64,000 nt of DNA from Eledone cirrhosa. Lineage: Eukaryota. The stretch is taken from positions 44,790 to 108,789 of the forward strand of contig CAXHJY010000575.1 of assembly GCA_964016885.1 (NCBI GenBank), given 5' to 3'. Below the pieces are notes generated by a model that was given only the letters and a program-made list of their open reading frames with translations, did no database searches and was not told where the DNA came from. Position numbers and translations under genes: made by a program. Positions 1-63,632 of the stretch are shown piece by piece (the first letter of the stretch is position 1; every line of letters starts with the position of its first letter).

Positions 1-3000
1 GCTGATGAGATGTAATAACATCGAAACTAGTCCAATATTCCTGTCTAGCTTTCTGGAGAATAGAGGAAAGGTGTTTCCTCGAAAACCAGTATGACTCTAA
101 AAACCGGTTTGTCTGTGTGTTTACATACAGAATAGCTGAACACTCACAGTAAAGTGTCCAGTGAAAAACTCGGTACATCTACATATGTACACGTGTGTGT
201 ATTCATATGCATACTAATATTTCAGTATACATATGTGGATGTACATTTTTAACTTAATTGTTTAAGCGTCAGTCATACAAAAGTGAGTTACAAACGAAGC
301 GAAATTTAATTTCGTTTCGTTATTTGTTTTTATCGTCTCCGCTGAACCGGTACGTACTCACGCTCTATGCAAATTAGTCTGCCCACTACTAATTTTCATA
401 GAAAAAGCATATAACGATATGTGCTTTTACGATTCTCTAGAAAGGCCGGAATAGGTAAATATTGCAGATGAGATGTAATAACATCGAAACTAGTCCAATA
501 TTCCTGTCTAGCTTTCTGGAGAATAGAGGAAAGGTGTTTCCTCGAAAACCAGTATGACTCTAAAAACCGGTTTGTCTGTGTGTTTACATACAGAATAGCT
601 GAACACTCACAGTAAAGTGTCCAGTGAAAAACTCGGTACATCTACATATGTACACGTGTGTGTATTCATATGCATACTAATATTTCAGTATACATATGTG
701 GATGTACATTTTTAACTTAATTGTTTAAGCGTCAGTCATACAAAAGTGAGTTACAAACGAAGCGAAATTTAATTTCGTTTCGTTATTTGTTTTTATCGTC
801 TCCGCTGAACCGGTACGTACTCACGCTCTATGCAAATTAGTCTGCCCACTACTAATTTTCATAGAAAAAGCATATAACGATATGTGCTTTTACGATTCTC
901 TAGAAAGGCCGGAATAGGTAAATATTGCTGATGAGATGTAACAACATCGAAACTAGTCCAATATTCCTGTCTAGCTTTCTGGAGAATAGAGGAAAGGTGT
1001 TTCCTCGAAAACCAGTATGACTCTAAAAACCGGTTTGTCTGTGTGTTTACATACAGAATAGCTGAACACTCACAGTAAAGTGTCCAGTGAAAAACTCGGT
1101 ACATCTACATATGTACACGTGTGTGTATTCATATGCATACTAATATTTCAGTATACATATGTGGATGTACATTTTTAACTTAATTGTTTAAGCGTCAGTC
1201 ATACAAAAGTGAGTTACAAACGAAGCGAAATTTAATTTCGTTTCGTTATTTGTTTTTATCGTCTCCGCTGAACCGGTACGTACTCACGCTCTATGCAAAT
1301 TAGTCTGCCCACTACTAATTTTCATAGAAAAAGCATATAACGATATGTGCTTTTACGATTCTCTAGAAAGGCCGGAATAGGTAAATATTGCTGATGAGAT
1401 GTAATAACATCGAAACTAGTCCAATATTCCTGTCTAGCTTTCTGGAGAATAGAGGAAAGGTGTTTCCTCGAAAACCAGTATGACTCTAAAAACCGGTTTG
1501 TCTGTGTGTTTACATACAGAATAGCTGAACACTCACAGTAAAGTGTCCAGTGAAAAACTCGGTACATCTACATATGTACACGTGTGTGTATTCATATGCA
1601 TACTAATATTTCAGTATACATATGTGGATGTACATTTTTAACTTAATTGTTTAAGCGTCTGTTATACAAAAGTGAGTTACAAACGAAGCGAAATTTAATT
1701 TCGTTTCGTTATTTGTTTTTATCGTCTCCGCTGACCCGGTACGTACTCACGCTCTATGCAAATTAGTCTGCCCACTACTAATTTTCATAGAAAAAGCATA
1801 TAACGATATGTGCTTTTACGATTCTCCAGAAAGGCCGGAATAGGTAAATATTGCTGATGAGATGTAACAACATCGAAACTAGTCCAATATTCCTGTCTAG
1901 CTTTCTGGAGAATAGAGGAAAGGTGTTTCCTCGAAAACCAGTATGACTCTAAAAACCGGTTTGTCTGTGTGTTTACATACAGAATAGCTGAACACTCACA
2001 GTAAAGTGTCCAGTGAAAAACTCGGTACATCTACATATGTACACGTGTGTGTATTCATATGCATACTAATATTTCAGTATACTTATGTGGATGTACATTT
2101 TTAACTTAATTGTTTAAGCGTCAGTCATACAAAAGTGAGTTACAAACGAAGCGAAATTTAATTTCGTTTCGTTATTTGTTTTTATCGTCTCCGCTGAACC
2201 GGTACGTACTCACGCTCTATGCAAATTAGTCTGCCAACTACTCATTTTCATAGAAAAAGCATATAACGATATGTGCTTTTACTATTCTCCAGAAAGGCCG
2301 GAATAGGTAAATATTGCTGATGAGATGTAACAACATCGAAACTAGTCCAATATTCCTGTCTAGCTTTCTGGAGAATAGAGGAAAGGTGTTTCCTCGAAAA
2401 CCAGTATGACTCTAAAAACCGGTTTGTCTGTGTGTTTACATACAGAATAGCTGAACACTCACAGTAAAGTGTCCAGTGAAAAACTCGGTACATCTACATA
2501 TGTACACGTGTGTGTATTCATATGCATACTAATATTTCAGTATACATATGTGGATGTACATTTTTAACTTAATTGTTTAAGCGTCAGTCATACAAAAGTG
2601 AGTTACAAACGAAGCGAAATTTAATTTCGTTTCGTTATTTGTTTTTATCGTCTCCGCTGAACCGGTACGTACTCACGCTCTATGCAAATTAGTCTGCCCA
2701 CTACTAATTTTCATAGAAAAAGCATATAACGATATGTGCTTTTACGATTCTCTAGAAAGGCCGGAATAGGTAAATATTGCTGATGAGATGTAACAACATC
2801 GAAACTAGTCCAATATTCCTGTCTAGCTTTCTGGAGAATAGAGGAAAGGTGTTTCCTCGAAAACCAGTATGACTCTAAAAACCGGTTTGTCTGTGTGTTT
2901 ACATACAGAATAGCTGAACACTCACAGTAAAGTGTCCAGTGAAAAACTCGGTACATCTACATATGTACACGTGTGTGTATTCATATGCATACTAATATTT

Positions 3001-6000
3001 CAGTATACATATGTGGATGTACATTTTTAACTTAATTGTTTAAGCGTCAGTCATACAAAAGTGAGTTACAAACGAAGCGAAATTTAATTTCGTTTCGTTA
3101 TTTGTTTTTATCGTCTCCGCTGAACCGGTACGTACTCACGCTCTATGCAAATTAGTCTCCCACTACTAATTTTCATAGAAAAAGCATATAACGATATGTG
3201 CTTTTACGATTCTCTAGAAAGGCCGGAATAGGTAAATATTGCTGATGAGATGTAATAACATCGAAACTAGTCCAATATTCCTGTCTAGCTTTCTGGAGAA
3301 TAGAGGAAAGGTGTTTCCTCGAAAACCAGTATGACTCTAAAAACCGGTTTGTCTGTGTGTTTACATACAGAATAGCTGAACACTCACAGTAAAGTGTCCA
3401 GTGAAAAACTCGGTACATCTACATATGTACACGTGTGTGTATTCATATGCATACTAATATTTCAGTATACATATGTGGATGTACATTTTTAACTTAATTG
3501 TTTAAGCGTCTGTTATACAAAAGTGAGTTACAAACGAAGCGAAATTTAATTTCGTTTCGTTATTTGTTTTTATCGTCTCCGCTGACCCGGTACGTACTCA
3601 CGCTCTATGCAAATTAGTCTGCCCACTACTAATTTTCATAGAAAAAGCATATAACGATACGTGCTTTTACGATTCTCCAGAAAGGCCGGAATAGGTAAAT
3701 ATTGCTGATGAGATGTAACAACATCGAAACTAGTCCAATATTCCTGTCTAGCTTTCTGGAGAATAGAGGAAAGGTGTTTCCTCGAAAACCAGTATGACTC
3801 TAAAAACCGGTTTGTCTGTGTGTTTACATACAGAATAGCTGAACACTCACAGTAAAGTGTCCAGTGAAAAACTCGGTACATCTACATATGTACACGTGTG
3901 TGTATTCATATGCATACTAATATTTCAGTATACATATGTGGATGTACATTTTTAACTTAATTGTTTAAGCGTCAGTCATACAAAAGTGAGTTACAAACGA
4001 AGCGAAATTTAATTTCGTTTCGTTATTTGTTTTTATCGTCTCCGCTGAACCGGTACGTACTCACGCTCTATGCAAATTAGTCTGCCCACTACTAATTTTC
4101 ATAGAAAAAGCATATAACGATATGTGCTTTTACGATTCTCTAGAAAGGCCGGAATAGGTAAATATTGCTGATGAGATGTAACAACATCGAAACTAGTCCA
4201 ATATTCCTGTCTAGCTTTCTGGAGAATAGAGGAAAGGTGTTTCCTCGAAAACCAGTATGACTCTAAAAACCGGTTTGTCTGTGTGTTTACATACAGAATA
4301 GCTGAACACTCACAGTAAAGTGTCCAGTGAAAAACTCGGTACATCTACATATGTACACGTGTGTGTATTCATATGCATACTAATATTTCAGTATACATAT
4401 GTGGATGTACATTTTTAACTTAATTGTTTAAGCGTCAGTCATACAAAAGTGAGTTACAAACGAAGCGAAATTTAATTTCGTTTCGTTATTTGTTTTTATC
4501 GTCTCCGCTGAACCGGTACGTACTCACGCTCTATGCAAATTAGTCTCCCACTACTAATTTTCATAGAAAAAGCATATAACGATATGTGCTTTTACGATTC
4601 TCTAGAAAGGCCGGAATAGGTAAATATTGCTGATGAGATGTAATAACATCGAAACTAGTCCAATATTCCTGTCTAGCTTTCTGGAGAATAGAGGAAAGGT
4701 GTTTCCTCGAAAACCAGTATGACTCTAAAAACCGGTTTGTCTGTGTGTTTACATACAGAATAGCTGAACACTCACAGTAAAGTGTCCAGTGAAAAACTCG
4801 GTACATCTACATATGTACACGTGTGTGTATTCATATGCATACTAATATTTCAGTATACATATGTGGATGTACATTTTTAACTTAATTGTTTAAGCGTCTG
4901 TTATACAAAAGTGAGTTACAAACGAAGCGAAATTTAATTTCGTTTCGTTATTTGTTTTTATCGTCTCCGCTGACCCGGTACGTACTCACGCTCTATGCAA
5001 ATTAGTCTGCCCACTACTAATTTTCATAGAAAAAGCTTATAACGATACGTGCTTTTACGATTCTCCAGAAAGGCCGGAATAGGTAAATATTGCTGATGAG
5101 ATGTAACAACATCGAAACTAGTCCAATATTCCTGTCTAGCTTTCTGGAGAATAGAGGAAAGGTGTTTCCTCGAAAACCAGTATGACTCTAAAAACCGGTT
5201 TGTCTGTGTGTTTACATACAGAATAGCTGAACACTCACAGTAAAGTGTCCAGTGAAAAACTCGGTACATCTACATATGTACACGTGTGTGTATTCATATG
5301 CATACTAATATTTCAGTATACATATGTGGATGTACATTTTTAACTTAATTGTTTAAGCGTCAGTCATACAAAAGTGAGTTACAAACGAAGCGAAATTTAA
5401 TTTCGTTTCGTTATTTGTTTTTATCGTCTCCGCTGAACCGGTACGTACTCACGCTCTATGCAAATTAGTCTGCCCACTACTAATTTTCATAGAAAAAGCA
5501 TATAACGATATGTGCTTTTACGATTCTCTAGAAAGGCCGGAATAGGTAAATATTGCTGATGAGATGTAATAACATCGAAACTAGTCCAATATTCCTGTCT
5601 AGCTTTCTGGAGAATAGAGGAAAGGTGTTTCCTCGAAAACCAGTATGACTCTAAAAACCGGTTTGTCTGTGTGTTTACATACAGAATAGCTGAACACTCA
5701 CAGTAAAGTGTCCAGTGAAAAACTCGGTACATCTACATATGTACACGTGTGTGTATTCATATGCATACTAATATTTCAGTATACATATGTGGATGTACAT
5801 TTTTAACTTAATTGTTTAAGCGTCTGTTATACAAAAGTGAGTTACAAACGAAGCGAAATTTAATTTCGTTTCGTTATTTGTTTTTATCGTCTCCGCTGAC
5901 CCGGTACGTACTCACGCTCTATGCAAATTAGTCTGCCCACTACTAATTTTCATAGAAAAAGCATATAACGATATGTGCTTTTACGATTCTCCAGAAAGGC

Positions 6001-9000
6001 CGGAATAGGTAAATATTGCTGATGAGATGTAACAACATCGAAACTAGTCCAATATTCCTGTCTAGCTTTCTGGAGAATAGAGGAAAAGTGTTTCCTCGAA
6101 AACCAGTATGACTCTAAAAACCGGTTTGTCTGTGTGTTTACATACAGAATAGCTGAACACTCACAGTAAAGTGTCCAGTGAAAAACTCGGTACATCTACA
6201 TATGTACACGTGTGTGTATTCATATGCATACTAATATTTCAGTATACATATGTGGATGTACATTTTTAACTTAATTGTTTAAGCGTCTGTCATACAAAAG
6301 TGAGTTACAAACGAAGCGAAATTTAATTTCGTTTCGTTATTTGTTTTTATCGTCTCCGCTGAACCGGTACGTACTCACGTTCTATGCAAATTAGTCTGCC
6401 CACTACTAATTTTCATAGAAAAAGCATATAACGATATGTGCTTTTACGATTCTCCAGAAAGGCCGGAATAGGTAAATATTGCTGATGAGATGTAACAACA
6501 TCGAAACTAGTCCAATATTCCTGTCTAGCTTTCTGGAGAATAGAGGAAAGGTGTTTCCTCGAAAACCAGTATGACTCTAAAAACCGGTTTGTCTGTGTGT
6601 TTACATACAGAATAGCTGAACACTCACAGTAAAGTGTCCAGTGAAAAACTCGGTACATCTACATATGTACACGTGTATGTATTCATATGCATACTAATAT
6701 TTCAGTATACATATGTGGATGTACATTTTTAACTTAATTGTTTAAGCGTCAGTCATACAAAAGTGAGTTACAAACGAAGCGAAATTTAATTTCGTTTCGT
6801 TATTTGTTTTTATTGTCTCCGCTGAACCGGTACGTACTCACGCTCTATGCAAATTAGTCTGCCCACTACTAATTTTCATAGAAAAAGCATATAACGATAT
6901 GTGCTTTTACGATTCTCTAGAAAGGCCGGAATAGGTAAATATTGCTGATGAGATGTAACAACATCGAAACTAGTCCAATATTCCTGTCTAGCTTTCTGGA
7001 GAATAGAGGAAAGGTGTTTCCTCGAAAACCAGTATGACTCTAAAAACCGGTTTGTCTGTGTGTTTACATACAGAATAGCTGAACACTCACAGTAAAGTGT
7101 CCAGTGAAAAACTCGGTACATCTACATATGTACACGTGTGTGTATTCATATGCATACTAATATTTCAGTATACTTATGTGGATGTACATTTTTAACTTAA
7201 TTGTTTAAGCGTCAGTCATACAAAAGTGAGTTACAAACGAAGCGAAATTTAATTTCGTTTCGTTATTTGTTTTTATCGTCTCCGCTGAACCGGTACGTAC
7301 TCACGCTCTATGCAAATTAGTCTGCCAACTACTCATTTTCATAGGCCGGAATAGGTAAATATTGCTGATGAGATGTAACAACATCGAAACTAGTCCAATA
7401 TTCCTGTCTAGCTTTCTGGAGAATAGAGGAAAGGTGTTTCCTCGAAAACCAGTATGACTCTAAAAACCGGTTTGTCTGTGTGTTTACATACAGAATAGCT
7501 GAACACTCACAGTAAAGTGTCCAGTGAAAAACTCGGTACATCTACATATGTACACGTGTGTGTATTCATATGCATACTAATATTTCAGTATACATATGTG
7601 GATGTACATTTTTAACTTAATTGTTTAAGCGTCAGTCATACAAAAGTGAGTTACAAACGAAGCGAAATTTAATTTCGTTTCGTTATTTGTTTTTATCGTC
7701 TCCGCTGAACCGGTACGTACTCACGCTCTATGCAAATTAGTCTGCCCACTACTAATTTTCATAGAAAAAGCATATAACGATATGTGCTTTTACGATTCTC
7801 TAGAAAGGCCGGAATAGGTAAATATTGCTGATGAGATGTAACAACATCGAAACTAGTCCAATATTCCTGTCTAGCTTTCTGGAGAATAGAGGAAAGGTGT
7901 TTCCTCGAAAACCAGTATGACTCTAAAAACCGGTTTGTCTGTGTGTTTACATACAGAATAGCTGAACACTCACAGTAAAGTGTCCAGTGAAAAACTCGGT
8001 ACATCTACATATGTACACGTGTGTGTATTCATATGCATACTAATATTTCAGTATACATATGTGGATGTACATTTTTAACTTAATTGTTTAAGCGTCAGTC
8101 ATACAAAAGTGAGTTACAAACGAAGCGAAATTTAATTTCGTTTCGTTATTTGTTTTTATCGTCTCCGCTGAACCGGTACGTACTCACGCTCTATGCAAAT
8201 TAGTCTGCCCACTACTAATTTTCATAGAAAAAGCATATAACGATATGTGCTTTTACGATTCTCTAGAAAGGCCGGAATAGGTAAATATTGCTGATGAGAT
8301 GTAACAACATCGAAACTAGTCCAATATTCCTGTCTAGCTTTCTGGAGAATAGAGGAAAGGTGTTTCCTCGAAAACCAGTATGACTCTAAAAACCGGTTTG
8401 TCTGTGTGTTTACATACAGAATAGCTGAACACTCACAGTAAAGTGTCCAGTGAAAAACTCGGTACATCTACATATGTACACGTGTGTGTATTCATATGCA
8501 TACTAATATTTCAGTATACATATGTGGATGTACATTTTTAACTTAATTGTTTAAGCGTCAGTCATACAAAAGTGAGTTACAAACGAAGCGAAATTTAATT
8601 TCGTTTCGTTATTTGTTTTTATCGTCTCCGCTGAACCGGTACGTACTCACGCTCTATGCAAATTAGTCTGCCCACTACTAATTTTCATAGAAAAAGCATA
8701 TAACGATATGTGCTTTTACGATTCTCTAGAAAGGCCGGAATAGGTAAATATTGCTGATGAGATGTAACAACATCGAAACTAGTCCAATATTCCTGTCTAG
8801 CTTTCTGGAGAATAGAGGAAAGGTGTTTCCTCGAAAACCAGTATGACTCTAAAAACCGGTTTGTCTGTTTGTTTACATACAGAATAGCTGAACACTCACA
8901 GTAAAGTGTCCAGTGAAAAACTCGGTACATCTACATATGTACACGTGTGTGTATTCATATGCATACTAATATTTCAGTATACATATGTGGATGTACATTT

Positions 9001-12000
9001 TTAACTTAATTGTTTAAACATCAGTCATACAAAAGTGAGTTACAAACGAAGCGAAATTTAATTTCGTTTCGTTATTTGTTTTTATCGTCTACGCTGAACC
9101 GGTACGTACTCACGCTCTATGCAAATTAGTCTGCCCACTACTAATTTTCATAGAAAAAGCATATAACGATATGTGCTTTTACGATTCTCTAGAAAGGCCG
9201 GAATAGGTAAATATTGCTGATGAGATGTAACAACATCGAAACTAGTCCAATATTCCTGTCTAGCTTTCTGGATAATAGAGGAAAGGTGTTTCCTCGAAAA
9301 CTAGTATGACTCTAAAAACCGATTTGTCTGTGTGTTTACATACAGAATAGCTGAACACTCACAGTAAAGTGTCCAGTGAAAAACTCGGTACATCTACATA
9401 TGTACACGTGTGTGTATTCATATGCATACTAATATTTCAGTATACATATGTGGATGTACATTTTTAACTTAATTGTTTAAGCGTCAGTCATACAAAAGTG
9501 AGTTACAAACGAAGCAAAATTTAATTTCGTTTCGTTATTTGTTTTTATCGTCTCCGCTGAACCGGTACGTACTCACGCTCTATGCAAATTAGTCTGCCCA
9601 CTACTAATTTTCATAGAAAAAGCATATAACGATATGTGCTTTTACGATTCTCTAGAAAGGCCGGAATAGGTAAATATTGCTGATGAGATGTAACAACATC
9701 GAAGCTAGTCCAATATTCCTGTCTAGCTTTCTGGAGAATAGAGGAAAGGTGTTTCCTCGAAAACCAGTATGACTCTAAAAACCGGTTTGTCTGTGTGTTT
9801 ACATACAGAATAGCTGAACACTCACAGTAAAGTGTCCAGTGAAAAACTCGGTACATCTACATATGTACACATGTGTGTATTCATATGCATACTAATATTT
9901 CAGTATACATATGTGGATGTACATTTTTAACTTAATTGTTTAAGCGTCAGTCATACAAAAGTGAGTTACAAACGAAGCGAAATTTAATTTCGTTTCGTTA
10001 TTTGTTTTTATCGTCTCCGCTGAACCGGTACGTACTCACGCTCTATGCAAATTAGTCTGCCCACTACTAATTTTCATAGAAAAAGCATATAACGTTATGT
10101 GCTTTTACGATTCTCTAGAAAGGCCGGAATAGGTAAATATTGCTGATGAGATGTAACAACATCGAAACTAGTCCAATATTCCTGTCTAGCTTTCTGGAGA
10201 ATAGAGGAAAGGTGTTTCCTCGAAAATCAGTATGACTCTAAAAACCGGTTTGTCTGTGTGTTTACATACAGAATAGCTGAACACTCACAGTAAAGTGTCC
10301 AGTGAAAAACTCGGTACATCTACATATGTACACGTGTGTGTATTCATATGCATACTAATATTTCAGTATACATATGTGGATGTACATTTTTAACTTAATT
10401 GTTTAAGCGTCTGTCATACAAAAGTGAGTTACAAACGAAGCGAAATTTAATTTCGTTTCGTTATTTGTTTTTATCGTCTCCGCTTAACCGGTACGTACTC
10501 ACGCTCTATGCAAATTAGTCTGCCCACTACTAATTTTCATAGAAAAAGCATATAACGATATGTGCTTTTACGATTCTCTAGAAAGGCCGGAATAGGTAAA
10601 TATTGCTGATGAGATGTAACAACATCGAAACTAGTCCAATATTCCTGTCTAGCTTTCTGGAGAATAGAGGAAAGGTGTTTCCTCGAAAACGAGTATGACT
10701 CTAAAAACCGGTTTGTCTGTGTGTTTACATACAGAATAGCTGAACACTCACAGTAAAGTGTCCAGTGAAAAACTCGGTACATCTACATATGTACACGTGT
10801 GTGTATTCATATGCATACTAATATTTCAGTATACATATGTGGATGTACATTTTTAACTTAATTGTTTAAGCGTCAGTCATACAAAAGTGAGTTACAAACG
10901 AAGCGAAATTTAATTTCGTTTCGTTATTTGTTTTTATCGTCTCCGCTGAACCGGTACGTACTCACGCTCTATGCAAATTAGTCTGCCCACTACTAATTTT
11001 CATAGAAAAAGCATATAACGATATGTGCTTTTACGATTCTCTAGAAAGGCCGGAATAGGTAAATATTGCTGATGAGATGTAACAACATCGAAACTAGTCC
11101 AATATTCCTGTCTAGCTTTCTGGAGAATAGAGGAAAGGTGTTTCCTCGAAAACCAGTATGACTCTAAAAACCGGTTTGTCTGTGTGTTTACATACAGAAT
11201 AGCTGAACACTCACAGTAAAGTTCCAGTGAAAAACTCGGTACATCTACATATGTACACGTGTGTGTATTCATATGCATACTAATATTTCAGTATACATAT
11301 GTGGATGTACATTTTTAACTTAATTGTTTAAGCGTCTGTCATACAAAAGTGAGTTACAAACGAAGCGAAATTTAATTTCGTTTCGTTATTTGTTTTTATC
11401 GTCTCCGCTGAACCGATACGTACTCACGCTCTATGCAAATTAGTCTGCCCACTACTAATTTTCATAGAAAAAGCATATAACGATATGTACTTTTACGATT
11501 CTCTAGAAAGGCCGGAATAGGTAAATATTGCTGATGAGATGTAACAACATCGAAACTAGTCCCAATATTCCTGTCTAGCTTTCTGGAGAATAGAGGAAAG
11601 GTGTTTCCTCGAAAACCAGTATGACTCTAAAAACCGGTTTGTCTGTTTGTTTACATACAGAATAGCTGAACACTCACAGTAAAGTGTCCAGTGAAAAACT
11701 CGGTACATCTACATATGTACACGTGTGTGTATTCATATGCATACTAATATTTCAGTATACATATGTGGATGTACATTTTTAACTTAATTGTTTAAGCGTC
11801 AGTCATACAAAAGTGAGTTACAAACGAAGCGAAATTTAATTTCGTTTCGTTATTTGTTTTTATCGTCTCCGCTTAACCGGTACGTACTCACGCTCTATGC
11901 AAATTAGTCTGCCCACTACTAATTTTCATAGAAAAAGCATATAACGATATGTGCTTTTACGATTCTCTAGAAAGGCCGGAATAGGTAAATATTGCTGATG

Positions 12001-15000
12001 AGATGTAACAACATCGAAACTAGTCCAATATTCCTGTCTAGCTTTCTGGAGAATAGAGGAAAGGTGTTTCCTCGAAAACGAGTATGACTCTAAAAACCGG
12101 TTTGTCTGTGTGTTTACATACAGAATAGCTGAACACTCACAGTAAAGTGTCCAGTGAAAAACTCGGTACATCTACATATGTACACGTGTGTGTATTCATA
12201 TGCATACTAATATTTCAGTATACATATGTGGATGTACATTTTTAACTTAATTGTTTAAGCGTCAGTCATACAAAAGTGAGTTACAAACGAAGCGAAATTT
12301 AATTTCGTTTCGTTATTTGTTTTCATCGTCTCCGCTGAACCGCTACGTACTCACGCTCTATGCAAATTAGTCTGCCCACTACTAATTTTCATAGAAAAAG
12401 CATATAACGATATGTGCTTTTACGATTCTCTAGAAAGGCCGGAATAGGTAAATATTGCTGATGAGATGTAACAACATCGAAACTAGTCCAATATTCCTGT
12501 CTAGCTTTCTGGAGAATAGAGGAAAGGTGTTTCCTCGAAAACCAGTATGACTCTAAAAACCGGTTTGTCTGTGTGTTTACATACAGAATAGCTGAACACT
12601 CACAGTAAAGTGTCCAGTGAAAAACTCGGTACATCTACATATGTACACGTGTGTGTATTCATATGCATACTAATATTTCAGTATACATATGTGGATGTAC
12701 ATTTTTAACTTAATTGTTTAAGCGTCAGTCATACAAAAGTGAGTTACAAACGAAGCGAAATTTATTTTCGTTTCGTTATTTGTTTTCATCATCTCCGCTG
12801 AACCGGTACGTACTCACGCTCTATGCAAATTAGTCTGCCCACTACTAATTTTCATAGAAAAAGCATATAACGATATGTGCTTTTACGATTCTCTAGAAAG
12901 GCCGGAATAGGTAAATATTGCTGATGAGATGTAACAACATCGAAACTAGTCCAATATTCCTGTCTAGCTTTCTGGAGAATAGAGGAAAGGTGTTTCCTCG
13001 AAAACCAGTATGACTCTAAAAACCGGTTTGTCTGTGTGTTTACATACAGAATAGCTGAACACTCACAGTAAAGTGTCCAGTGAAAAACTCGGTACATCTA
13101 CATATGTACACGTGTGTGTATTCATATGCATACTAATATTTCAGTATACATATGTGGATGTACATTTTTAACTTAATTGTTTAAGCGTCAGTCATACAAA
13201 AGTGAGTTACAAACGAAGCGAAATTTATTTTCGTTTCGTTATTTGTTTTCATCATCTCCGCTGAACCGGTACGTACTCACGCTCTATGCAAATTAGTCTG
13301 CCCACTACTAATTTTCATAGAAAAAGCATATAACGATATGTGCTTTTACGATTCTCTAGAAAGGCCGAAATAGGTAAATATTGCTGATGAGATGTAACAA
13401 CATCGAAACTAGTCCAATATTCCTGTCTAGCTTTCTGGAGAATAGAGGAAAGGTGTTTCCTCGAAAACCAGTATGACTTTAAAAACCGGTTTGTCTGTGT
13501 GTTTACATACAGAATAGCTGAACACTCACGGTAAAGTGTCCAGTGAAAAACTCGGTACATCTACATATGTACACGTGTGTGTATTCATATGCATACTAAT
13601 ATTTCAGTATACATATGTGGATGTACATTTTTAACTTAATTGTTTAAGCGTCAGTCATACAAATGTGAGTTACAAACGAAGCAAAATTTAATTTCGTTTC
13701 GTTATTTGTTTTTATCGTCTACGCTGAACCGGTACGTACTCACGCTCTATGCAAATTAATCTGCCCACTACTAATTTTCATAGAAAAAGCATATAACGAT
13801 ATGTGCTTTTACGATTCTCTAGAAAGGCCGGAATAGGTAAATATTGCTGATGAGATGTAACAACATCGAAACTAGTCCAATATTCCTGTCTAGCTTTCTT
13901 GAGAATAGAGGAAAGGTGTTTCCTCGAAAACCAGTATGACTCTAAAAACCGGTTTGTCTGTGTGTTTACATACAGAATAGCTGAACACTCAGAGTAAAGT
14001 GTCCAGTGAAAAACTTGGTACATCTACATATGTACACGTGTGTGTATTCATATGCATACTAATATTTCAGTATACATATGTGGATGTACATTTTTAACTT
14101 AATTGTTTAAGCGTCTGTCCTACAAAAGTGAGTTACAAACGAAGCGAAATTTAATTTCGTTTCGTTATTTGTTTTTATCGTCTCCGCTGAACCGGTACGT
14201 ACACACGCTCTATGCAAATTAATCTGCCCACTACTAATTTTCATAGAAAAAGCATATAACGATATGTGCTTTTACGATTCTCTAGAAAGGCCGGAATAGG
14301 TAAATATTGCTGATGAGATGTAACAACATCGAAACTAGTCCAATATTCCTGTCTAGCTTTCTGGAGAATAGAGGAAAGGTGTTTCCTCGAAAACCAGTAT
14401 GACTCTAAAAACCGGTTTGTCTGTGTGTTTACATACAGAATAGCTGAACACTCACAGTAAAGTGTCCAGTGAAAAACTCGGTACATCTACATATGTACAC
14501 GTGTGTGTATTCATATGCATACTAATATTTCAGTATACATATGTGGATGTACATTTTTAACTTAATTGTTTAAGCGTCAGTCATACAAAAGTGAGTTACA
14601 AACGAAGCGAAATTTAATTTCGTTTCGTTATTTGTTTTCATCGTCTCCGCTGAACCGGTACGTACTCACGCTCTATGCAAATTAGTCTGCCCACTACTAA
14701 TTTTCATAGAAAAAGCATATAACGATATGTGCTTTTACGATTCTCTAGAAAGGCCGGAATAGGTAAATATTGCTGATGAGATGTAACAACATCGAAACTA
14801 GTCCAATATTCCTGTCTAGCTTTCTGGAGAATAGAGGAAAGGTGTTTCCTCGAAAACCAGTATGACTCTAAAAACCGGTTTGTCTGTGTGTTTACATACA
14901 GAATAGCTGAACACTCACAGTAAAGTGTCCAGTGAAAAACTCGGTACATCTACATATGTACACGTGTGTGTATTCATATGCATACTAATATTTCAGTATA

Positions 15001-45111: not shown

Positions 45112-46422
45112 CGAGAGGGGATCAAAAAGTTCGCGGAATTTTTCAGAAAATATTCTATTTTTCAAAAAATATGATTTACCTTCAATTTATTTTTCTACAT
45201 AGTTGCCATCCAGGTCAATACACTTCACAAGGCGATGCTTCCAGCTTCGAGAGCCGTCTCTAAAGAAAGTTGAAGGCCTTGTTCGAAGCCATGTGTTGGC
45301 AGTGTTTTTAGCTTCTTCAACACCACTAAAACGGGTTCCTTTTAGCATTTCTTTGAGTTTTAGAAAGAGGAAAAAGTCTGATAGGGCTAAATCTAGACTA
45401 TAAGGCGGGTGAGGAAGCACTTCCCATCGAAATTCTCGAAGAACTTCTTTTGCAACCCGGGCAGAATGCGCTGGTGCATTGTCATGGTCAAACAAGATCC
45501 CACCATGAAGTTTCCCTTTTCGTTTCTTGACTAATGCCTCTTTCAGTTTCCTTAAAACATTTGCATAGTAAGCTCCTGTCACAGTTCTTTGACCTTCAAG
45601 ATAATCTATTAGTATCACCCCATCTGAATCCCAGAAAATGGTGGCCATCACTTTTTTATCCGACTTTTGAGATTTGAACTTGATTGGCCCCGATGATCCA
45701 CGCGGAAGCCACTGTTTTGACTGCTGTTTGGATTCAGGATCATACTGTCAGATCCAGGTTTCATCTCCGGTGATGATTCTGGTCAGGAAATGTTCTTCAT
45801 CAACTTCAATTTTGTTTAATATCGCCAAAGACAAATCACTCCGAAGAATCAGCTGATCAGGGCGCAACGCTTTTGGGACCCATCGCACTGAAAGCTTGCT
45901 TAGTCCCAAATTATCGTGCAGAATTGAATTTTCCGAACCATATGAAATGTCTAGGGACTTAGCTAACTGACTAACTGTTATTCTTCGATCTTCTTCAATA
46001 AAAGTCTGAGCAGCCTCAACGTTTGGTCATTTTTTGATGTTCCTAGTCTTCCACTGCGATGGTCGTCTTCAAGGTCGTCTCTCCCTTGTTTGAATCGCTG
46101 AATCCACTTGTAGACAGCAGTTTTCTTTGGAGCAGTAGTACCGTAAACTTTAACTAAAGCCTCCATAATCTGTGTCCCTTTCCTTTTGAGTTTCACCAGA
46201 AACTTGATATTCGATCTTATCTCAAAATAACTATTTTCCATTGTTCCAAAAAGAGGTTTTTTAAAGTGTGTCAGTACTGTACAATAGTCCACGCATAACT
46301 GACTGCAAGTGACTAATAGCAAGGTAAACACCCAGTGACAATGTTCTGACATGTTTAATATTGTTTTAACCTATTTTTTTCTGACTACGATAAAATTCCG
46401 CGAACGTTTTGATCCCCACTCG
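45112..46422 (-). mobile_element. Full-length mariner DNA transposon (~1.31 kb), defective
   Basis: Imperfect ~30-bp TIRs CGAGAGGGGATCAAAAAGTTCGCGGAATTTT / AAAATTCCGCGAACGTTTTGATCCCCACTCG, with TA flanks. Confidence 0.93.
45187..46242 (-). pseudogene. Mariner DD34D transposase, frameshifted or stop-containing
   Basis: HTH N-terminus (VYKWIQRFKQGRDDLEDD.RSGR), ITGDETW, HDNAPAH, HPPYSLDLALSDF. Confidence 0.92.
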
Positions 46423-49308: not shown

Positions 49309-49377
49309 ATATGAAATATATGAAATATATGAAATATATGAAATATAAGAATCAAAGAACTGTTCAAAACATTATTG

Positions 49378-49424
49378 TGCTTACAGCTGTTTCCTCCAAA
49401 CCGAGGTTTGGATTCTTCGGAGCA
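49378..49424 (-). ncRNA. Hammerhead ribozyme, variant core CCGAAGA, PLE-2 3' pLTR
   Basis: TGCT-CCGAAGA-ATCCAAAC(ctcg)GTTTGGAG-GAAA-CAGCTG-TA^-AGCA. Confidence 0.8.
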
Positions 49425-50867
49425 ATTTATTAATGCATGGACAGTTATATGACCTCCTTTTCAGCCGAGGGACATACCAATACATATTCAAACATTGATA
49501 CATATTCAAACATTGTGGGTCAACATTCATTACAAAATTTAGAGTGGCAGTACACACTTCGAGATTACATTTATATTAATAGGTACAATCAAAAATCAAA
49601 GATATAGGTTAAAGTACAACATGAAGGTAAGTGGTTATATAGTGCAAATGTTATATGTGTGGCACGCATGTGCGTCTTGTTTATATAGTGTGGCAGAGAG
49701 ATATGTGTGGTAGAGGCACTTAGGTAGGTAAATAAGAGTGTTAGGTTGGTAGATCTGGTGGCAAAGTCTTTATATGATTGATGTAGTCTGTGTGTGGAGA
49801 AATATTATAAACATTAAAGATAGTGCAAGCATTAAAAGTGTTATAAGTATTGGAGATGCACAACGCAGGGATGTCACGTAATTCATGTACTTCGGCATTT
49901 TCATGGTCAAGGGAGTGTATATTTCGATTATATGCCTTTCACATAATCCACGACAATCCAGTTAGAGATCGTAGTCTGGTGTTCCTTAGTTCGATACAGG
50001 AGGTTGTTACGTTTCGAGAGACGCCATTGAATACCGGAAGTGTGTGTGTGGCTAAGGGGAGTTAATGCATGCGGGGAGGTAACTCTGGGGTTTCTATATC
50101 TAGCCATTAAAATGTGTCCCAATATGGACCCTAAATTCTATGGTGAGGTGCACCTTCCAAGAGAGACTTTTAAAGCATAAAGTGTACTAACTATAGAGTA
50201 GTTTAACTAAATTATGCTGAAGGGGATCATATTAATATTAAGGTGGATTAACCCATCTTAAGGTGCTACAAATGGAAATTATAGATGATGAGCGAGGATT
50301 CTAAATTAATGATCTCTGTGGTTGTAGTCTGCTCATATGACCAGGCGCGGTGATTGCAGGATTGCTTCAGGACCCAATGATCTCTGGTAAGATCTGGGTC
50401 ATCGCTTGCTACATTGGATGTCGAAAGATAATCGTCCCCAGGCAGGCCAAAGGTCAATCCGCAGTCCTCGCGACCCCTCTCTGACCGTCAGATCATCCAT
50501 ATACGTACAACCCGCACGGCAGTTGCATTGCATTCACTCCCTGCGCTCAGCAGCCCGGTCCTACTGGTCAACAGCGCTACTCGATTAAATCATTTTACAT
50601 CTGTCTAAGGAAGGTGTTTCCTCTGCCCAACACCATCCAACCGATCGATTCATGCTCAAATTACCCTTAGAGCGGTGTAGTGCCGTCCAGGTGGGTGGAT
50701 GTTGTCACACCTGCCGTAGAGGTATAAATGGGTATTTTCCCTGCGAAGGGTTCCAGAGGGATGTCGTTGTTTGTGTTATAATGGATCAGCTAGTGTTGGG
50801 TATGTAGTATAGGGTGTGTCTCTGGTGTTTGATGCTAGATGCGGTGTTAGGTTCCAGTCCGACATTG

Positions 50868-53327
50868 CTATATATAGGGCTTAAAGTTTTGGAAGGAATG
50901 TCTGAGGCGGTGCTGGCAAGTTGCAAACACCTCAGATTTTTTGTTAAGTAGGTTACGGTTGGAGAAGATAATATTGTGTGTCTCTAGTATACAGAGGTTA
51001 CAGAATTTATTAGGTGGTTTGTACGAGGTCGCGCTGCCTATCACTTCCCATTTGAGTGTGTATGGTTTATTTTTAGATTTTAGATAGTGTATGTAGCTAG
51101 AAAGTGAGGTGGAGTTGGCTAGGCTGTGCTTTTTGAACGAGTGGATGTGCGAGTTATATCTAATTTTGAAGCAGTTAGAAGTGGAGCCTACATAGGTTTC
51201 TGAAGAGTTATTAGTCGTGACTGTGCATGAGTATATGACATCCTTAGTTAGGCATTTTTTATCTAAAGGGCAGGTTCTATTAGCTCTACAGTTACAATTA
51301 TTCTGTGCGTTAGTCCGCTGGTTATAATGCAATGCGGAAGTCTGTGTGGTGGATATAGGATTTTGGGTGTTCAGGTTGACAACCCTGGTGTTATTACTTA
51401 TACTAGTGTTATTTCTATTGTTACTGCCGTTGCTATTGTTGCTTGCTACAGTGGTATTTAGAGGGTTTGCATCCCGTTGTGATTTTGTTTGTTGGAAGTA
51501 AGAACTAATTTTACTATTATTGCTGCTAGCTATGTGGTATGCTAAGTTGGGCGTCGTAGAGTATGAGATTTTAATGGTGTTTTTGTTTAAGAGGTTGTGG
51601 TACTTGTGTCCTAGAGGGAAGTTTTTATCTAGTAGTGAGAAGAAAGCCCTAGGTATGTTGGTGGAGACATTTAGGTTGAAAGGAGGGTTGAAAAATGTAT
51701 TATTTCTTCTTCTATTTTTGCTTTTAGTGTTTGGTGTGTTGCTTCCTCCTAAGGCCTCACAGTAGTTTCCATGGTAATGGTTACTTCCGGTGGCACCCTC
51801 CGCTTTGGTGTACTTGTGGTTGCTATTCCTATTATTAGATTTCCTCATGGACATGTTGTGCGAGATGATGTTGTAGCTATGTGTTTTCTTAGGTAGGAAC
51901 TCTATTTCTATATTATGGCCGGAGCTAGCTAATGCTTGATTGTAATATTGTGAGTTTTTGCTAAATATGTTTGCGTCATAGGACAGACTAGAGATTCTAT
52001 TGGACACCCCCTTAGAGATAGAGTTTAATATTGATCTAGGGTGATTAGACTTGGTATCTACGTAAATAAGTTTCTCATTAGGCTTATGGAAAGGTGTATA
52101 TATTTTTGAGTCTAGGTATAGTGTGGCGTCTAGGAAGTTAACATTTTTAGTGTTTTTGTCCATGGTGATACTAAGGTTAAAGTTTTTGAATGTCTTATGC
52201 AGTTGTTTTCTAGTTCTTTCTATATTAAATTTTTTATATTCTATGAGTAGAAGTGCATCATCGCGGTACAAACCACCGTTGAGGTAAGGGAGGTCTTTAT
52301 GGATTTCATTGAGGAGGTATAGGCCGACCAAATCAGTGACCTGCGCCGAGTCACTAGATCCCATGGTTATGTCGAAGTTGTTGTGCGTATCCTTGCGTGT
52401 CCATAGTTGGTCCTCGAAGGTGATTATGGTTTTACGGGCCGCAAGGATGACATCAACCTGGGCTCTAGTCAGGTCGCTATTGGTCATGGCCATGATAAGT
52501 GCCTTATTTAATAGGATAGGGGAAATAGAGGTGTAGTATGAATTGATATCAAATTGAATAAATTTTTTGTTCTTATTATTCTTGATATCCTTAAACCATT
52601 CAATTACTTCACCCGTATTTCCCCATTGTTTAAGGTGTATCTTGTGTTTAATTTGTGGGATGATTTTATCCAAAATCTTCTTGCTGATAATACCAATGTC
52701 GGACTTGGAAGGGCAGATAAGTCTTATCGTGGGGTTGCTGATGAAGTTCTCCTTATGGTCCTTCAGAGAGAATCTAGGGGGGTTCGGAGTGAAAGGTTGT
52801 GTATGCCTCTGTAGTCCTAGTTTAGACACTATATTATAACCCTCTACATTAATATCTTCTAAGTTTTTCAAGGTGGTTTTTTTGTAGCTTTTATGTAGTT
52901 CATTATATATAAACTTTCTATAAGTAATATAATCTAGGCTGTATATGTTATTAGTTTTATCTGCGTGTACAATAATTTTATTACTAGTTTTGAATCCACT
53001 AATAGAAGTGTTAAGTTTGTTTAAGAAGGTGTTGCTTCTAATATGGTGCTTATTGTATTTAATGTTCTTAACTAGTTTAACTAGGTCATTTTCAAAGGAG
53101 TTAAGTAGAGTGTTATGAGGGGGGCTTTTAAAGGTTTTAAAGCCGAAGGAGTCAAAATTGTTAGTATTATTCAAGTTGTTAGATTTGTTTCTATCATAAT
53201 GGAATGTCCTCCATCTCACTCTATTGATAAATGAATTTACACTGTTGATCAGCAATTTCTCATATGTATTCCTGGATGGTATTGGTATGTTCTTGATCGA
53301 CATGGGGAGTTGGTCTTTGATTAGCAT
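50868..53327 (-). CDS. Penelope-like element polyprotein: reverse transcriptase + Cys-rich linker + GIY-YIG endonuclease (819 aa, intact)
   Basis: Motifs ADKT, QFDINSYY, MGSSDSAQVTDLVG, GLYRDD, NFLD, FFNPP, CNC-x5-CPL, VIY..TYVG, CNLC and terminal C-x-H. Confidence 0.95.
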   Translation of the reverse strand: MLIKDQLPMSIKNIPIPSRNTYEKLLINSVNSFINRVRWRTFHYDRNKSNNLNNTNNFDSFGFKTFKSPPHNTLLNSFENDLVKLVKNIKYNKHHIRSNTFLNKLNTSISGFKTSNKIIVHADKTNNIYSLDYITYRKFIYNELHKSYKKTTLKNLEDINVEGYNIVSKLGLQRHTQPFTPNPPRFSLKDHKENFISNPTIRLICPSKSDIGIISKKILDKIIPQIKHKIHLKQWGNTGEVIEWFKDIKNNKNKKFIQFDINSYYTSISPILLNKALIMAMTNSDLTRAQVDVILAARKTIITFEDQLWTRKDTHNNFDITMGSSDSAQVTDLVGLYLLNEIHKDLPYLNGGLYRDDALLLIEYKKFNIERTRKQLHKTFKNFNLSITMDKNTKNVNFLDATLYLDSKIYTPFHKPNEKLIYVDTKSNHPRSILNSISKGVSNRISSLSYDANIFSKNSQYYNQALASSGHNIEIEFLPKKTHSYNIISHNMSMRKSNNRNSNHKYTKAEGATGSNHYHGNYCEALGGSNTPNTKSKNRRRNNTFFNPPFNLNVSTNIPRAFFSLLDKNFPLGHKYHNLLNKNTIKISYSTTPNLAYHIASSNNSKISSYFQQTKSQRDANPLNTTVASNNSNGSNNRNNTSISNNTRVVNLNTQNPISTTQTSALHYNQRTNAQNNCNCRANRTCPLDKKCLTKDVIYSCTVTTNNSSETYVGSTSNCFKIRYNSHIHSFKKHSLANSTSLSSYIHYLKSKNKPYTLKWEVIGSATSYKPPNKFCNLCILETHNIIFSNRNLLNKKSEVFATCQHRLRHSFQNFKPYI

Positions 53328-53576
53328 ATTGGCAATATTATATGTCAGCTCAACGATATGGAGCAGTTAATAGTATTAGTTATACTATTTATGGTTATGT
53401 AAACACAAAACCTTAAGCAGTTGTAAGTATTATACACACACCCTAAATAGTGGTAGGCAGTAATGTATTACTACCTTATTACCAGTAAGTTAAGTAGCTC
53501 AATGTAAAAACATCAGATGATTTACAGAGCAGTTATATGAAATATAAGAATCAAAGAACTGTTCAAAACATTATTG

Positions 53577-53623
53577 TGCTTACAGCTGTTTCCTCCAAAC
53601 CGAGGTTTGGATTCTTCGGAGCA
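53577..53623 (-). ncRNA. Hammerhead ribozyme (CCGAAGA), PLE-2 5' pLTR
   Basis: Identical to 49378-49424. Confidence 0.8.
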
Positions 53624-54557
53624 ATTTATTAATGCATGGACAGTTATATGACCTCCTTTTCAGCCGAGGGACATACCAATACATATTCAAACATTGATAC
53701 ATATTCAAACATTGTGGGTCAACATTCATTACAAAATTTAGAGTGGCAGTACACGCTTCGAGATTACATTTATATTAATAGGTACAATCAAAAATCAAAG
53801 ATATAGGTTAAAGTACAACCTATGGAAGGTGCACCTCACCATAGAATTTAGGGTCCATATTGGGACACATTTTAATGGCTAGATATAGAAACCCCAGAGT
53901 TACCTCCCCGCATGCATTAACTCCCCTTAGCCACACACACACTTCCGGTATTCAATGGCGTCTCTCGAAACGTAACAACCTCCTGTATCGAACTAAGGAA
54001 CACCAGACTACGATCTCTAACTGGATTGTCGTGGATTATGTGAAAGGCATATAATCGAAATATACACTCCCTTGACCATGAAAATGCCGAAGTACATGAA
54101 TTACGTGACATCCCTGCGTTGTGCATCTCCAATACTTATAACACTTTTAATGCTTGCACTATCTTTAATGTTTATAATATTTCTCCACACACAGACTACA
54201 TCAATCATATAAAGACTTTGCCACCAGATCTACCAACCTAACACTCTTATTTACCTACCTAAGTGCCTCTACCACACATATCTCTCTGCCACACTATATA
54301 AACAAGACGCACATGCGTGCCACACATATAACATTTGCACTATATAACCACTTACCTTCATGTTGTACTTTAACCTATATCTTTGATTTTTGATTGTACC
54401 TATTAATATAAATGTAATCTCGAAGTGTGTACTGCCACTCTAAATTTTGTAATGAATGTTGACCCACAATGTTTGAATATGTATCAATGTTTGAATATGT
54501 ATTGGTATGTCCCTCGGCTGAAAAGGAGGTCATATAACTGTCCATGCATTAATAAAT

Positions 54558-54604
54558 TGCTCCGAAGAATCCAAACCTCGGTTTGGAGGAAACAGCTGTA
54601 AGCA
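54558..54604 (+). ncRNA. Hammerhead ribozyme (CCGAAGA), PLE-2 inverted pLTR
   Basis: Identical motif on the + strand. Confidence 0.8.
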
Positions 54605-54810
54605 CAATAATGTTTTGAACAGTTCTTTGATTCTTATATTTCATATAACTGCTCTGTAAATCATCTGATGTTTTTACATTGAGCTACTTAACTTACTGGT
54701 AATAAGGTAGTAATACATTACTGCCTACCACTATTTAGGGTGTGTGTATAATACTTACAACTGCTTAAGGTTTTGTGTTTACATAACCATAAATAGTATA
54801 ACTAATACTA

Positions 54811-55652: not shown

Positions 55653-56568
55653 TTTCTATCTCTATCTGAGCGTGTCCAAAATTTGTTACTGAAGTTAATG
55701 AGAGTTCTTCTGGCTGTTAAAATTATATCTATTTCATTTGTGGTTAGATCAGTATGCTTATAAGCATATGAGAGGGCCTTATTTAGAAGTTTAGGTGTTA
55801 TAGAAGAATAGTATCTAGTAATATCCATCTGGATGAATTCATAGTTTTTCTTATCTTCAATATTCGTGTACCATTCAATGACCTCGTTTGTATTTTTCCA
55901 TAAGCTCAAACTAGATCTCAATTTAAGAGTGGGTAATATTCTATCTATGATGTTTTTACTGATTACTCCTATATCCGATTTCGATGGAGCAATCAGTCTA
56001 ACTGGCATCTCTTTTCTTTTATGATCTTTCAGGTTAATCCTCGGCTGTCTAGGTAAGAATGGCTCAGTTCTTCCTTGTATTCCTAGATTGGTAATTAACT
56101 TATAGGCTTCTTCATTAATTTCAGTAATTTTTGTAATTTTTCCTAAGTTCTTTCAAAATCAGGTCGTTATATTCATTTTGCTTATCCATATAAATTATTA
56201 GTTTTGTCAGATTTAACCAATACTTTGTTAACATTTTTTATTTCAGTGATTTTAGCTTTTAGAGATCTGAGGTATTGGTGACCTATATATGGGTTTTTCC
56301 TAAATTTAATTTTTTTGATTATGCCGAGCATTTCTGTTTCAAAAACCTCCAGAAGTTTGTTATATGGAGGATTTTTTCTTGATTTAAACAAAGATTTAAA
56401 CTGATTGTCGTTGGTTTTTCTTTCAGCATCTTTCTTTTCGAAATGAAAAGCTCTCCATCTTAATCTTCTAATAAAAGAATTTGTCTGTTCTATAGTTTTC
56501 TTCATGTATTCTTCATTTGAAGGTATAGGTATATCTTTGAGGGAAGTCGGGAAGTTTAAGAAATCCAT
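55653..56568 (-). pseudogene. PLE-4 second-unit RT N-terminal part, truncated at (TA)n
   Basis: Same 128-aa N-terminal frame and [12 protein letters not shown].. frame as 59681-58543. Confidence 0.88.
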
Positions 56569-56772
56569 ATTTATAGAATATGCAATCTATTGTATAGAAA
56601 AGCGCTCAACCAGTTGGGAGCAATATATATATTAAAGTGTTAAACAATATTCAATGATTATATCAAAGAGTTTTACAGTAGATTGGAAGCACTCAACGGG
56701 AAAATAATTTTCTGGAGTTATTAATATTAAATATAAGTATTAATAAAATAGATGTTCTTTTGATCAATTACA

Positions 56773-56823
56773 TTTTATTATACATATTTCGGATGTACAA
56801 CAGTACGTCCTCATCAGACAAAA
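56773..56823 (-). ncRNA. Type-I hammerhead ribozyme, PLE-4
   Basis: TTTTGT-CTGATGA-GGACGTAC(tgtt)GTACATCC-GAAA-TATGTA-TA^-ATAAAA. Confidence 0.87.
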
Positions 56824-59681: not shown

Positions 59682-59885
59682 ATTTATAGAATATGCAATC
59701 TATTGTATAGAAAAGCGCTCAACCAGTTGGGAACAATATATATATTAAAGTGTTAAACAATATTCAATGATTATATCAAAGAGTTTTACAGTAGATTGGA
59801 AGCACTCAACGGGAAAATAATTTTCTGGAGTTATTAATATTAAATATAAGTATTAATAAAATAGATGTTCTTTTGATCAATTACA

Positions 59886-63386: not shown

Positions 63387-63632
63387 GTCAAATAATTAAG
63401 TCAAATGTTTAAAATCATATGATTCCAGTTCCTCAGTGAAATAAGAACCCAACCAGGAACTGGGCATACCAGAGTATTGACAAAGTTATACACCTCAACA
63501 ACATGTGTACTCGTCTTTACCACACTAATTCGGACTGCCTGAAGAGGTCACAGCCAAAGATGGCTGTCACCGAAATATATATAGCAGTAATAAACGAAGC
63601 CAAATTTTAAACATTTGACTTTATTTTATTTT
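63387..63632 (+). mobile_element. Diverged PLE-1-family pLTR 3' fragment
   Basis: Similar to ~18680-18900; ends in (TA)n. Confidence 0.85.
63534..63588 (+). ncRNA. Type-I hammerhead ribozyme (PLE-1 family)
   Basis: ACTGC-CTGAAGA-GGTCACAGCCA..TGGCTGTCACC-GAAA-TATATA-TA-GCAGT; conserved while the flanks have diverged. Confidence 0.88.

What the first reader, a model, noticed from the sequence alone, without database searches (positions are those of the whole stretch)
959..1421. The 463-nt monomer folds almost entirely into stems, with G-U wobbles pointing to the + strand and ends that pair as in a circle
Seen, local stems: GAGGAAA/TTTCCTC; TCTGTGTG/CATACAGA; 17-bp GTACATCTACATATGTA/TACATATGTGGATGTAC; 14-bp AACGAAGCGAAATT/AATTTCGTTTCGTT; CTATG-AAATTAGT/ACTAATTT-CATAG; AAAAGCATATA/TATGTGCTTTT. 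Seen, long-range stems: GTATGACT/AGTCATAC; GTGAGT/ACTCAC; and a 13-bp extension of HHR stem I, ATTCTC(T/C)AGAAAG/CTTTCTGGAGAAT. The imperfect pairs in these stems are G-U on + (A-C on -). The recurrent T/C variant (TCTAG/TCCAG) toggles U-G and C-G. Inference: selection on a viroid-like structured RNA whose post-cleavage ends are juxtaposed for ligation.
Basis: partly seen in the sequence, partly recalled or inferred. Interest (0 to 1): 0.78.

Follow-up and report, generated by a model that had tools for sequence, protein, structure and literature searches.

The report
Retrozyme array with Penelope-like tail
This is a tandem animal-genome repeat whose 463-base unit carries a hammerhead ribozyme motif and is predicted to fold tightly on one strand, so it is likely a known kind of circular-RNA retroelement (a retrozyme); the new part is that its copies end at one site, in a tract resembling the end of a neighbouring Penelope-like transposon that would likely be its helper.

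Summary
The named stems are real. The monomer folds far better than shuffles (circular z -10.1), and better on + than on -, a gap that vanishes when G-U pairs are forbidden. "Almost entirely" overstates it: 67% of bases pair (shuffles 60%), in a branched fold. The unit is one of 32 full copies in a tandem array, with a type I hammerhead at each junction. This is the anatomy of a metazoan non-LTR retrozyme, already described as self-paired circular RNAs. In public runs, 16 of 21 variants at paired sites keep pairing, including four two-sided changes; inside this array only 3 of 24 do. So the family is under structural selection, while the local array grew blind to structure. The 55 nt before that point resemble one of the 3' ends of a co-resident Hydra-clade Penelope-like element (shuffle p about 0.003-0.013). 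That is a candidate helper-recognition site. Expression, cleavage and circularisation are untested.

The parts
1..15227 (+). Tandem array of the 463-bp unit, about 98% alike; 33 hammerhead junctions, 32 full monomers (29 of 463, 2 of 462, 1 of 420 bp). Left end lies outside the window.
959..1421 (+). One monomer between two predicted cleavage sites (after C958 and C1421): the predicted circular RNA
1378..1432 (+). Type I hammerhead: stem I (1384-1390 with 1422-1428, bulge 1382-1383, 1378-1381 with 1429-1432), core CUGAUGA 1391-1397, stem II 1398-1402/1407-1411, GAAA 1412-1415, GUC triplet 1419-1421
   Evidence: sequence; Rfam Hammerhead_HH9 31.5 bits, E 7.6e-6, below the gathering score of 52; 30 of 33 junctions pass a strict core pattern
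1415..1420 (+). Palindromic 6-mer forming helix III: one pair closing a CUAG loop as a monomer, or a 6-bp duplex between two hammerheads (dimer cleavage, inferred)
   Evidence: palindrome, duplex -4.8 kcal/mol; closing the monomeric pair costs 5.9 kcal/mol
975..987 (+). 5' arm of the 13-bp extension of stem I; pairs with 1358-1370
   Evidence: variants 1364 and 1368 keep pairing
1062..1087 (+).
1099..1170 (+). 17-bp stem with inner hairpin; variants 1138, 1155 and 1163 G>A keep pairing, three rare ones break it
1212..1259 (+). Tract resembling the 3' end of the PLE-A pLTR (36 of 47 aligned letters): 13-14 bp hairpin 1219-1247, then a mostly unpaired U-rich stretch 1248-1259 where copies join (TA)n
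   Evidence: table 7
14804..15227 (+). Rearranged right end of the array: 151-bp duplication, deletion of most of the 1219-1247 hairpin, then junction to (TA)n at the equivalent of monomer 1255-1259
15228..16831 (.). (TA)n microsatellite joined to the array, the inferred insertion target
17880..23168 (+). PLE-A, Penelope-like element with Hydra-clade motifs (RWK, DKT, CxCX5C, C-terminal GIY-YIG), ORF in frameshifted pieces, two pLTRs with a minimal hammerhead motif (18810, 22964) followed by the shared tract (18857, 23011)
29297..29447 (+). PLE-A fragment ending in the shared tract and running into (TA)n
63406..63631 (+). Diverged PLE-A fragment (89% alike) ending in the shared tract and running into (TA)n

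Best explanation
This is a tandem array of a 463-bp unit with a type I hammerhead motif on the + strand, likely a non-LTR retrozyme, whose predicted transcript would self-cleave into monomers, would be circularised, and would likely be copied back into (TA)n microsatellites by a Hydra-clade Penelope-like element starting in the U-rich tract at about 1255-1259. Shown: the array, the hammerhead motif, the + strand fold, structure-keeping variation across the family, a recurrent 3' junction to (TA)n, and a moderate likeness of the 55 nt before that junction to PLE-A 3' ends. Inferred from known retrozymes: transcription through the array; cleavage after GUC, probably by two hammerheads pairing through the palindromic helix III; ligation by a host RtcB-type ligase. 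Inferred here: the PLE protein nicks (TA)n and starts reverse transcription inside the RNA, about 300 nt downstream of the 5' cleavage site and 160 nt upstream of the 3' one. A linear monomer could then give only a 300-nt insert, so multi-copy inserts need a circle or an uncleaved multimer. The local array was later enlarged by DNA-level duplication. The retrozyme assignment as a class (this plus the first rival) is about 0.85.
For: Fold and asymmetry. Hammerhead. Family variants: 16 of 21 at paired sites keep pairing against 3 of 24 inside the array (Fisher p 2e-5); 4 pairs vary on both sides against 0.57 expected (p 0.0008). Head-to-tail joints in 3 of 4 runs. Junction: array end and the best-supported loose end shown for X1, 12 contigs at 1259 going into (AT)n, although 32 places on the monomer offer similar TA microhomology. 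Of 926 possible end points on both strands, the best match to two PLE-A ends falls at 1261-1263 and 1255-1257 (scores 47, 48; best more than 10 nt away 37 and 33). Hydra PLEs target (TA)n (PMC8557442 section 11); a PLE starts reverse transcription inside its RNA (PMC11167929).
Against: No RNA evidence was obtained. The tract likeness is moderate and AT-rich: 8-16 of 3000 shuffles reach it, 19-38 of 3000 if position 1225 is masked, and nearly all X1 copies carry A there, which loses a match. Against the whole pLTR the local score is reached by 39 of 1000 shuffles. 2 of 4 PLE-A ends lie further downstream and do not match; 7 ends were tested and the two that match are one family. Single contigs in X5 (1361) and X6 (1071) run on into other sequence at other sites, and 34 loose-end rows were not shown. 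The 12 contigs need not be 12 independent insertions. (TA)n fills 16% of the rest of the window. Three of the four two-sided changes sit in one hairpin, and co-occurrence on one contig is inferred from equal depth values. 1083 T>A mostly occurs without its partner change (15 of 21 on a strict count). G-U-type versus A-C-type variants, 8 versus 4 by my hand count, is not significant (p 0.19). The retrozyme and PLE-A hammerheads are unlike each other. The PLE-A copy here is broken.
Confidence: 0.55

Rival explanations
1. Same retrozyme and same RNA-level selection, but the likeness to PLE-A is chance or convergence of AT-rich ends. Another reverse transcriptase (another PLE family or a LINE) mobilises it, or the junction at 1259 comes from a few founder insertions amplified as DNA.
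For: Moderate p-values that weaken when 1225 is masked; whole-pLTR test 39 of 1000; at least two other PLE families and LINE pieces are in the same window; different hammerheads.
Against: The best match of 926 end points coincides within 4 nt with an independently observed junction, in the same orientation, with the same (TA)n target; the PLE-B and PLE-C stretches tested gave no such match.
Confidence: 0.3
2. An inert satellite DNA. The stems are DNA palindromes kept or made by template switching and gene conversion, and the hammerhead is a relic that is no longer used.
For: Variation inside the array ignores structure (3 of 24 keep pairing) and shared private variants show DNA-level duplication. 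The - strand also folds well (z -6.8). Two letters fixed in this array break pairs present in most X1 copies. This may well describe this particular array today.
Against: Strand asymmetry depends on G-U pairs and nearly disappears with DNA energies; family-wide variants often create G-U pairs rather than perfect palindromes; a two-sided change lies in hammerhead stem II; 30 of 33 cores pass a strict pattern.
Confidence: 0.08
3. Integrated copies of a viroid-like RNA that replicates RNA to RNA, the fold being selected for replication rather than for retrotransposition.
For: Viroid-like size, stability and hammerhead; RNA-RNA replication was raised as a possibility for mussel retrozymes (PMC7229834).
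Against: Branched fold with 67% pairing; no complete hammerhead core on the - strand of the repeat unit; very abundant head-to-tail copies with genomic junctions; no match of a hammerhead pattern in viral or metagenome contigs (exact patterns only).
Confidence: 0.07

Closest known systems
Metazoan non-LTR retrozymes (coral, mussel, axolotl; Cervera and de la Pena 2020, PMC7229834)
   Same: Tandem units, one type I hammerhead per unit, low GC (36%), no LTR/PBS/PPT layout, highly self-paired predicted circle with the hammerhead free to fold, PLEs in the same genome.
   Different: 463 nt against about 170-400 nt for the RNAs described (repeats 150-450 bp; 51-972 bp in the 2026 preprint). A recurrent (TA)n junction and a PLE-like tract were not seen in the text I read; PMC7761336 states that no motif pointing to the helper is known.
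Newt satellite 2 / axolotl HHR_Amex1
   Same: Helix III reduced to one pair capped by a palindromic tetraloop, which needs dimers for efficient cleavage (PMC7229834).
   Different: Here in what is likely an invertebrate; most invertebrate retrozyme hammerheads are reported to have a stable helix III (PMC7761336), though short palindromic helix III is called usual in PMC4209133.
Xenopus retrozymes homologous to PLE pLTRs (bioRxiv 10.64898/2026.07.22.740005)
   Same: Sequence link between retrozyme and the terminal repeat of a PLE.
   Different: There 24 of 57 families match known elements, nearly all PLE termini, and are read as pLTR derivatives. Here only about 50 nt at the insertion junction are alike, the hammerheads differ, and the PLE is of the Hydra clade.
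Hammerhead viroids and satellite RNAs (recalled, not tested)
   Same: Small, structured, hammerhead-processed circles.
   Different: Genome-encoded array; hammerhead on one strand only; no evidence of RNA-RNA replication.

Membership tests
non-LTR retrozyme | Tandem genomic repeats, dimers to large multimers | tested here: met
   32 full monomers; head-to-tail joints in 3 of 4 runs
non-LTR retrozyme | Type I hammerhead in consecutive units | tested here: met
   30 of 33 junctions pass a strict core pattern; Rfam HH9 E 7.6e-6 but below the gathering score
non-LTR retrozyme | Unit of a few hundred bases, GC below 45-50% | tested here: met
   463 bp, GC 36%; slightly above the 150-450 bp of PMC7229834, inside the 51-972 bp of the 2026 preprint
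non-LTR retrozyme | Stable, highly self-paired predicted circle | tested here: met
   z -10.1, 0 of 120 shuffles as low
non-LTR retrozyme | Non-coding, no LTR/PBS/PPT | tested here: inconclusive
   No LTR layout in the tandem array; tRNA-primer sites and ORFs inside the monomer were not searched
non-LTR retrozyme | Expressed as linear and circular RNA; self-cleaves | not testable with these tools
   No RNA run was listed; needs northern blot, RT-PCR and in vitro transcription
non-LTR retrozyme | Target-site duplication | not testable with these tools
   Left end outside the window; no genome held
Hydra-clade PLE (neighbour PLE-A) | RWK, DKT, CxCX5C linker, C-terminal GIY-YIG, (TA)n insertions, pLTR hammerhead | tested here: met
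   Motifs; GIY-YIG E 6.5e-4, below cut-off; junctions; definition. No tree was built.
Viroid / satellite RNA | RNA-to-RNA replication without a DNA phase | tested here: not met
   The sequence exists as a chromosomal array with genomic junctions; an additional RNA-RNA phase cannot be excluded

The most novel reading that the evidence does not exclude
This retrozyme carries a borrowed Penelope-like 3' tail: a ~50-nt tract, folded into a hairpin plus an open U-rich landing strip, that recruits a Hydra-clade PLE protein and fixes the start of rolling-circle reverse transcription on the RNA circle. It would be the SINE-LINE tail rule for circular RNAs, and a defined cis-element naming the helper of an animal retrozyme.
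Probability: 0.5. Interest if true: 0.75.

Novelty: new variant of a known kind. Interest (0 to 1): 0.55.

Why it matters
How animal retrozymes are copied back into the genome is open: a 2020 review says their repeats show no motif that points to the helper (PMC7761336), and a 2026 preprint links them to PLEs by co-occurrence and, in frogs, by pLTR likeness, with limited evidence on the life cycle. This family offers a defined 3' junction, a defined target and a named candidate helper, so the model becomes testable with the in vitro PLE assay of PMC11167929. The contrast between structure-keeping family variants and structure-blind array variants also separates an RNA-level from a DNA-level mode of amplification. 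The fold itself is an expected feature.

Tried and rejected
Rfam at gathering thresholds: 0 matches in 64 kb; miRNA and snoRNA hits below threshold treated as chance hairpins. No RNA holder listed; this says nothing on expression. An exact hammerhead pattern found 0 loci in viral and in metagenome contigs, and a search for PLE-A relatives in metagenomes gave 81 pattern matches, none confirmed, so no distant homologues were available for a proper alignment or R-scape test. No genome is held for this window. Three look-ups in earlier findings returned nothing. The supplement of PMC7229834 could not be read; it may list cephalopod or longer retrozymes. The bacterial promoter scan is not meaningful for this host. 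Derivation of the whole monomer from a pLTR in this window: rejected, only the short tract aligns. A-to-I editing as the cause of the G-U excess: 3 of 11 A/G sites lie in TAG context against 8 of 147 A's, a hint only, since these letters also occur in what look like genomic contigs. The fall in summed depth after 1259 in X1 and X6 fits many copies ending there but was not counted, because contig depth is unreliable. Only 4 control windows passed the filter.

Full report
Observation. Window 1-15227 is a tandem array of a 463-bp unit, about 98% alike, with 33 hammerhead junctions and 32 full monomers. The monomer folds far better than dinucleotide shuffles: linear z -10.4 on + and -7.6 on -; circular z -10.1 and -6.8. 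The +/- gap (-19.8 kcal/mol) was reached by 0 of 120 shuffles. It disappears when G-U pairs are forbidden and is small with DNA energies. The four control windows that passed my filter gave z no lower than -1.5.

Only 67% of bases pair, against 60% in shuffles, and the fold is branched. A strand-neutral count of single mismatches inside helices gives 4 G-U to 1 A-C at strict settings but 6 to 7 at loose ones. The paired ends are hammerhead stem I and its extension; the circular MFE structure equals the linear one.

The ribozyme. The junction reads as a type I hammerhead with cleavage predicted after C958 and C1421. Rfam finds nothing at gathering thresholds but aligns Hammerhead_HH9 end to end at E 7.6e-6. 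30 of 33 junctions pass a strict core pattern; two have a core change and one an extra C after the triplet. Helix III is a palindromic 6-mer, one pair closing a tetraloop as a monomer or a 6-bp duplex between two ribozymes. This is the design of newt and axolotl hammerheads that need dimers (PMC7229834). Dimer cleavage is inferred, not shown.

Selection on structure. I laid 4 of the 6 listed runs on one monomer; all are contigs of unrecorded kind. X1 gave 1042 pieces, and X1, X4 and X6 show head-to-tail joints. Of 35 listed variants, 21 fall at paired sites and 16 keep the pair, 10 alone and 6 with a partner change; 5 break it. On a strict count it is 15, because 1083 T>A mostly occurs alone. 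Co-occurrence is inferred from equal contig depths in X6, and three of the four share one hairpin. Inside the window's array, only 3 of 24 substitutions at paired sites keep pairing (Fisher p 2e-5, and p 0.007 for 2 of 11 recurrent ones against 15 of 20). The two sets were filtered differently (5% share against any copy), and some singletons may be assembly errors. Shared private variants (monomers 4, 8, 11, 13; 5, 16; 7, 10) show DNA-level duplication. Five letters fixed in this array differ from most X1 copies, two of them turning G-C into A-C.

The 3' junction and the candidate helper. The array's right end stops at the equivalent of monomer 1255-1259 and runs into (TA)n. The best-supported loose end shown for X1 is 12 contigs stopping at 1259 and running into (AT)n (13 rows shown, 34 not). 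The window also holds several Penelope-like elements. PLE-A has the RWK, DKT and CxCX5C motifs of the Hydra clade, which targets (TA)n. Just 3' of its minimal hammerhead lies a tract that matches retrozyme 1212-1259 at 36 of 47 aligned letters. Two of four PLE-A ends stop in that tract and join (TA)n. Scanning all 926 end points of the monomer, the best match to those two ends falls at 1261-1263 and 1255-1257. Anchored at 1259, 16 and 8 of 3000 shuffles reach the score, or 38 and 19 with position 1225 masked, where nearly all X1 copies lose the match. The five other PLE stretches tested do not match. Against the whole pLTR the local score is reached by 39 of 1000 shuffles. In the predicted circle 1248-1256 is mostly unpaired, behind a 13-bp hairpin. 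Single contigs in X5 and X6 leave the repeat at other sites. The evidence is moderate.

Mechanism. Inferred from known retrozymes (PMC7229834): transcription, cleavage to monomers, ligation by an RtcB-type ligase. Inferred here: a Hydra-clade PLE protein nicks (TA)n and starts reverse transcription inside the RNA at the U-rich tract, as a lizard PLE starts internally in vitro (PMC11167929). This start is about 300 nt from the monomer's 5' end, so multi-copy inserts need a circle or an uncleaved multimer; the data do not tell these apart, and in the lizard element uncleaved RNA was the main substrate. Unequal exchange then enlarges arrays. The promoter is unknown.

Comparison and novelty. The element meets every retrozyme criterion I could test; expression, cleavage and target-site duplication were not testable. 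The self-paired fold is already known. The host is likely a cephalopod: the degenerate zinc-finger repeats at 34673-34863 and the (TA)n richness resemble octopus DNA (recalled, not tested), and the named relatives of one PLE protein are from molluscs, which is weak. Five literature searches showed no report of a cephalopod retrozyme or of a shared junction tract; the giant squid genome paper only counts 235 hammerhead matches. What I saw: PMC7229834 parts 1-4 of 6, supplement unreadable; bioRxiv 10.64898/2026.07.22.740005 parts 1-3 of 5, supplements not seen; PMC8557442 passages and section 11; PMC4209133, PMC7761336 and PMC6962438 passages; PMC11167929 parts 1-2 of 4. The unseen supplements may bear on the novelty claim.

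Verdict. A real, selected RNA structure belonging to a known class, with one new and testable feature. Interest 0.55.

Noticed in passing
window 50868-53366 (-), repeats 49335-50159 / 53370-54647: PLE-C: an uninterrupted 832-aa frame with DKT, YRDD, CxCX5C and GIY-YIG-like motifs, no Pfam hit, flanked by an 825-bp perfect inverted repeat; its terminal repeat has a hammerhead-like core beginning CCGAAGA. It is the only intact-looking PLE in the window, but its end does not match the retrozyme tract.
   Followed up: partly
window 55653-60242 (-): PLE-B: two partial tandem copies (98.7% alike), each with a minimal hammerhead motif at 56817 and 59930.
   Followed up: partly
window 6976-7395: A 420-bp monomer with a 43-bp deletion that removes the 1329-1354 hairpin and most of the 3' arm of the stem I extension.
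   Followed up: no
run X4, record 9: A single 495-letter contig at depth 9.7 covers the whole unit and closes on itself, in another organism label; 7 of its 11 listed changes are A>G, one making a GNRA-type loop at 1340. It could be a homogeneous array, a trace of host DNA or a circular RNA; the run's kind is unrecorded.
   Followed up: partly
window 1376 and 1430 (table 4): Insertions on both arms of stem I occur together in X4 and X6 contigs and appear to add pairs; this array lacks them.
   Followed up: no
window 30330-33467 (+); 45187-46370 (-); 61045-63386 (+): A 1045-aa LINE frame (endonuclease and RT), a mariner-type transposase in pieces, and a second broken LINE.
   Followed up: no
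window 34673-34863: Degenerate 84-bp C2H2 zinc-finger repeats, resembling those of octopus genomes (recalled).
   Followed up: no
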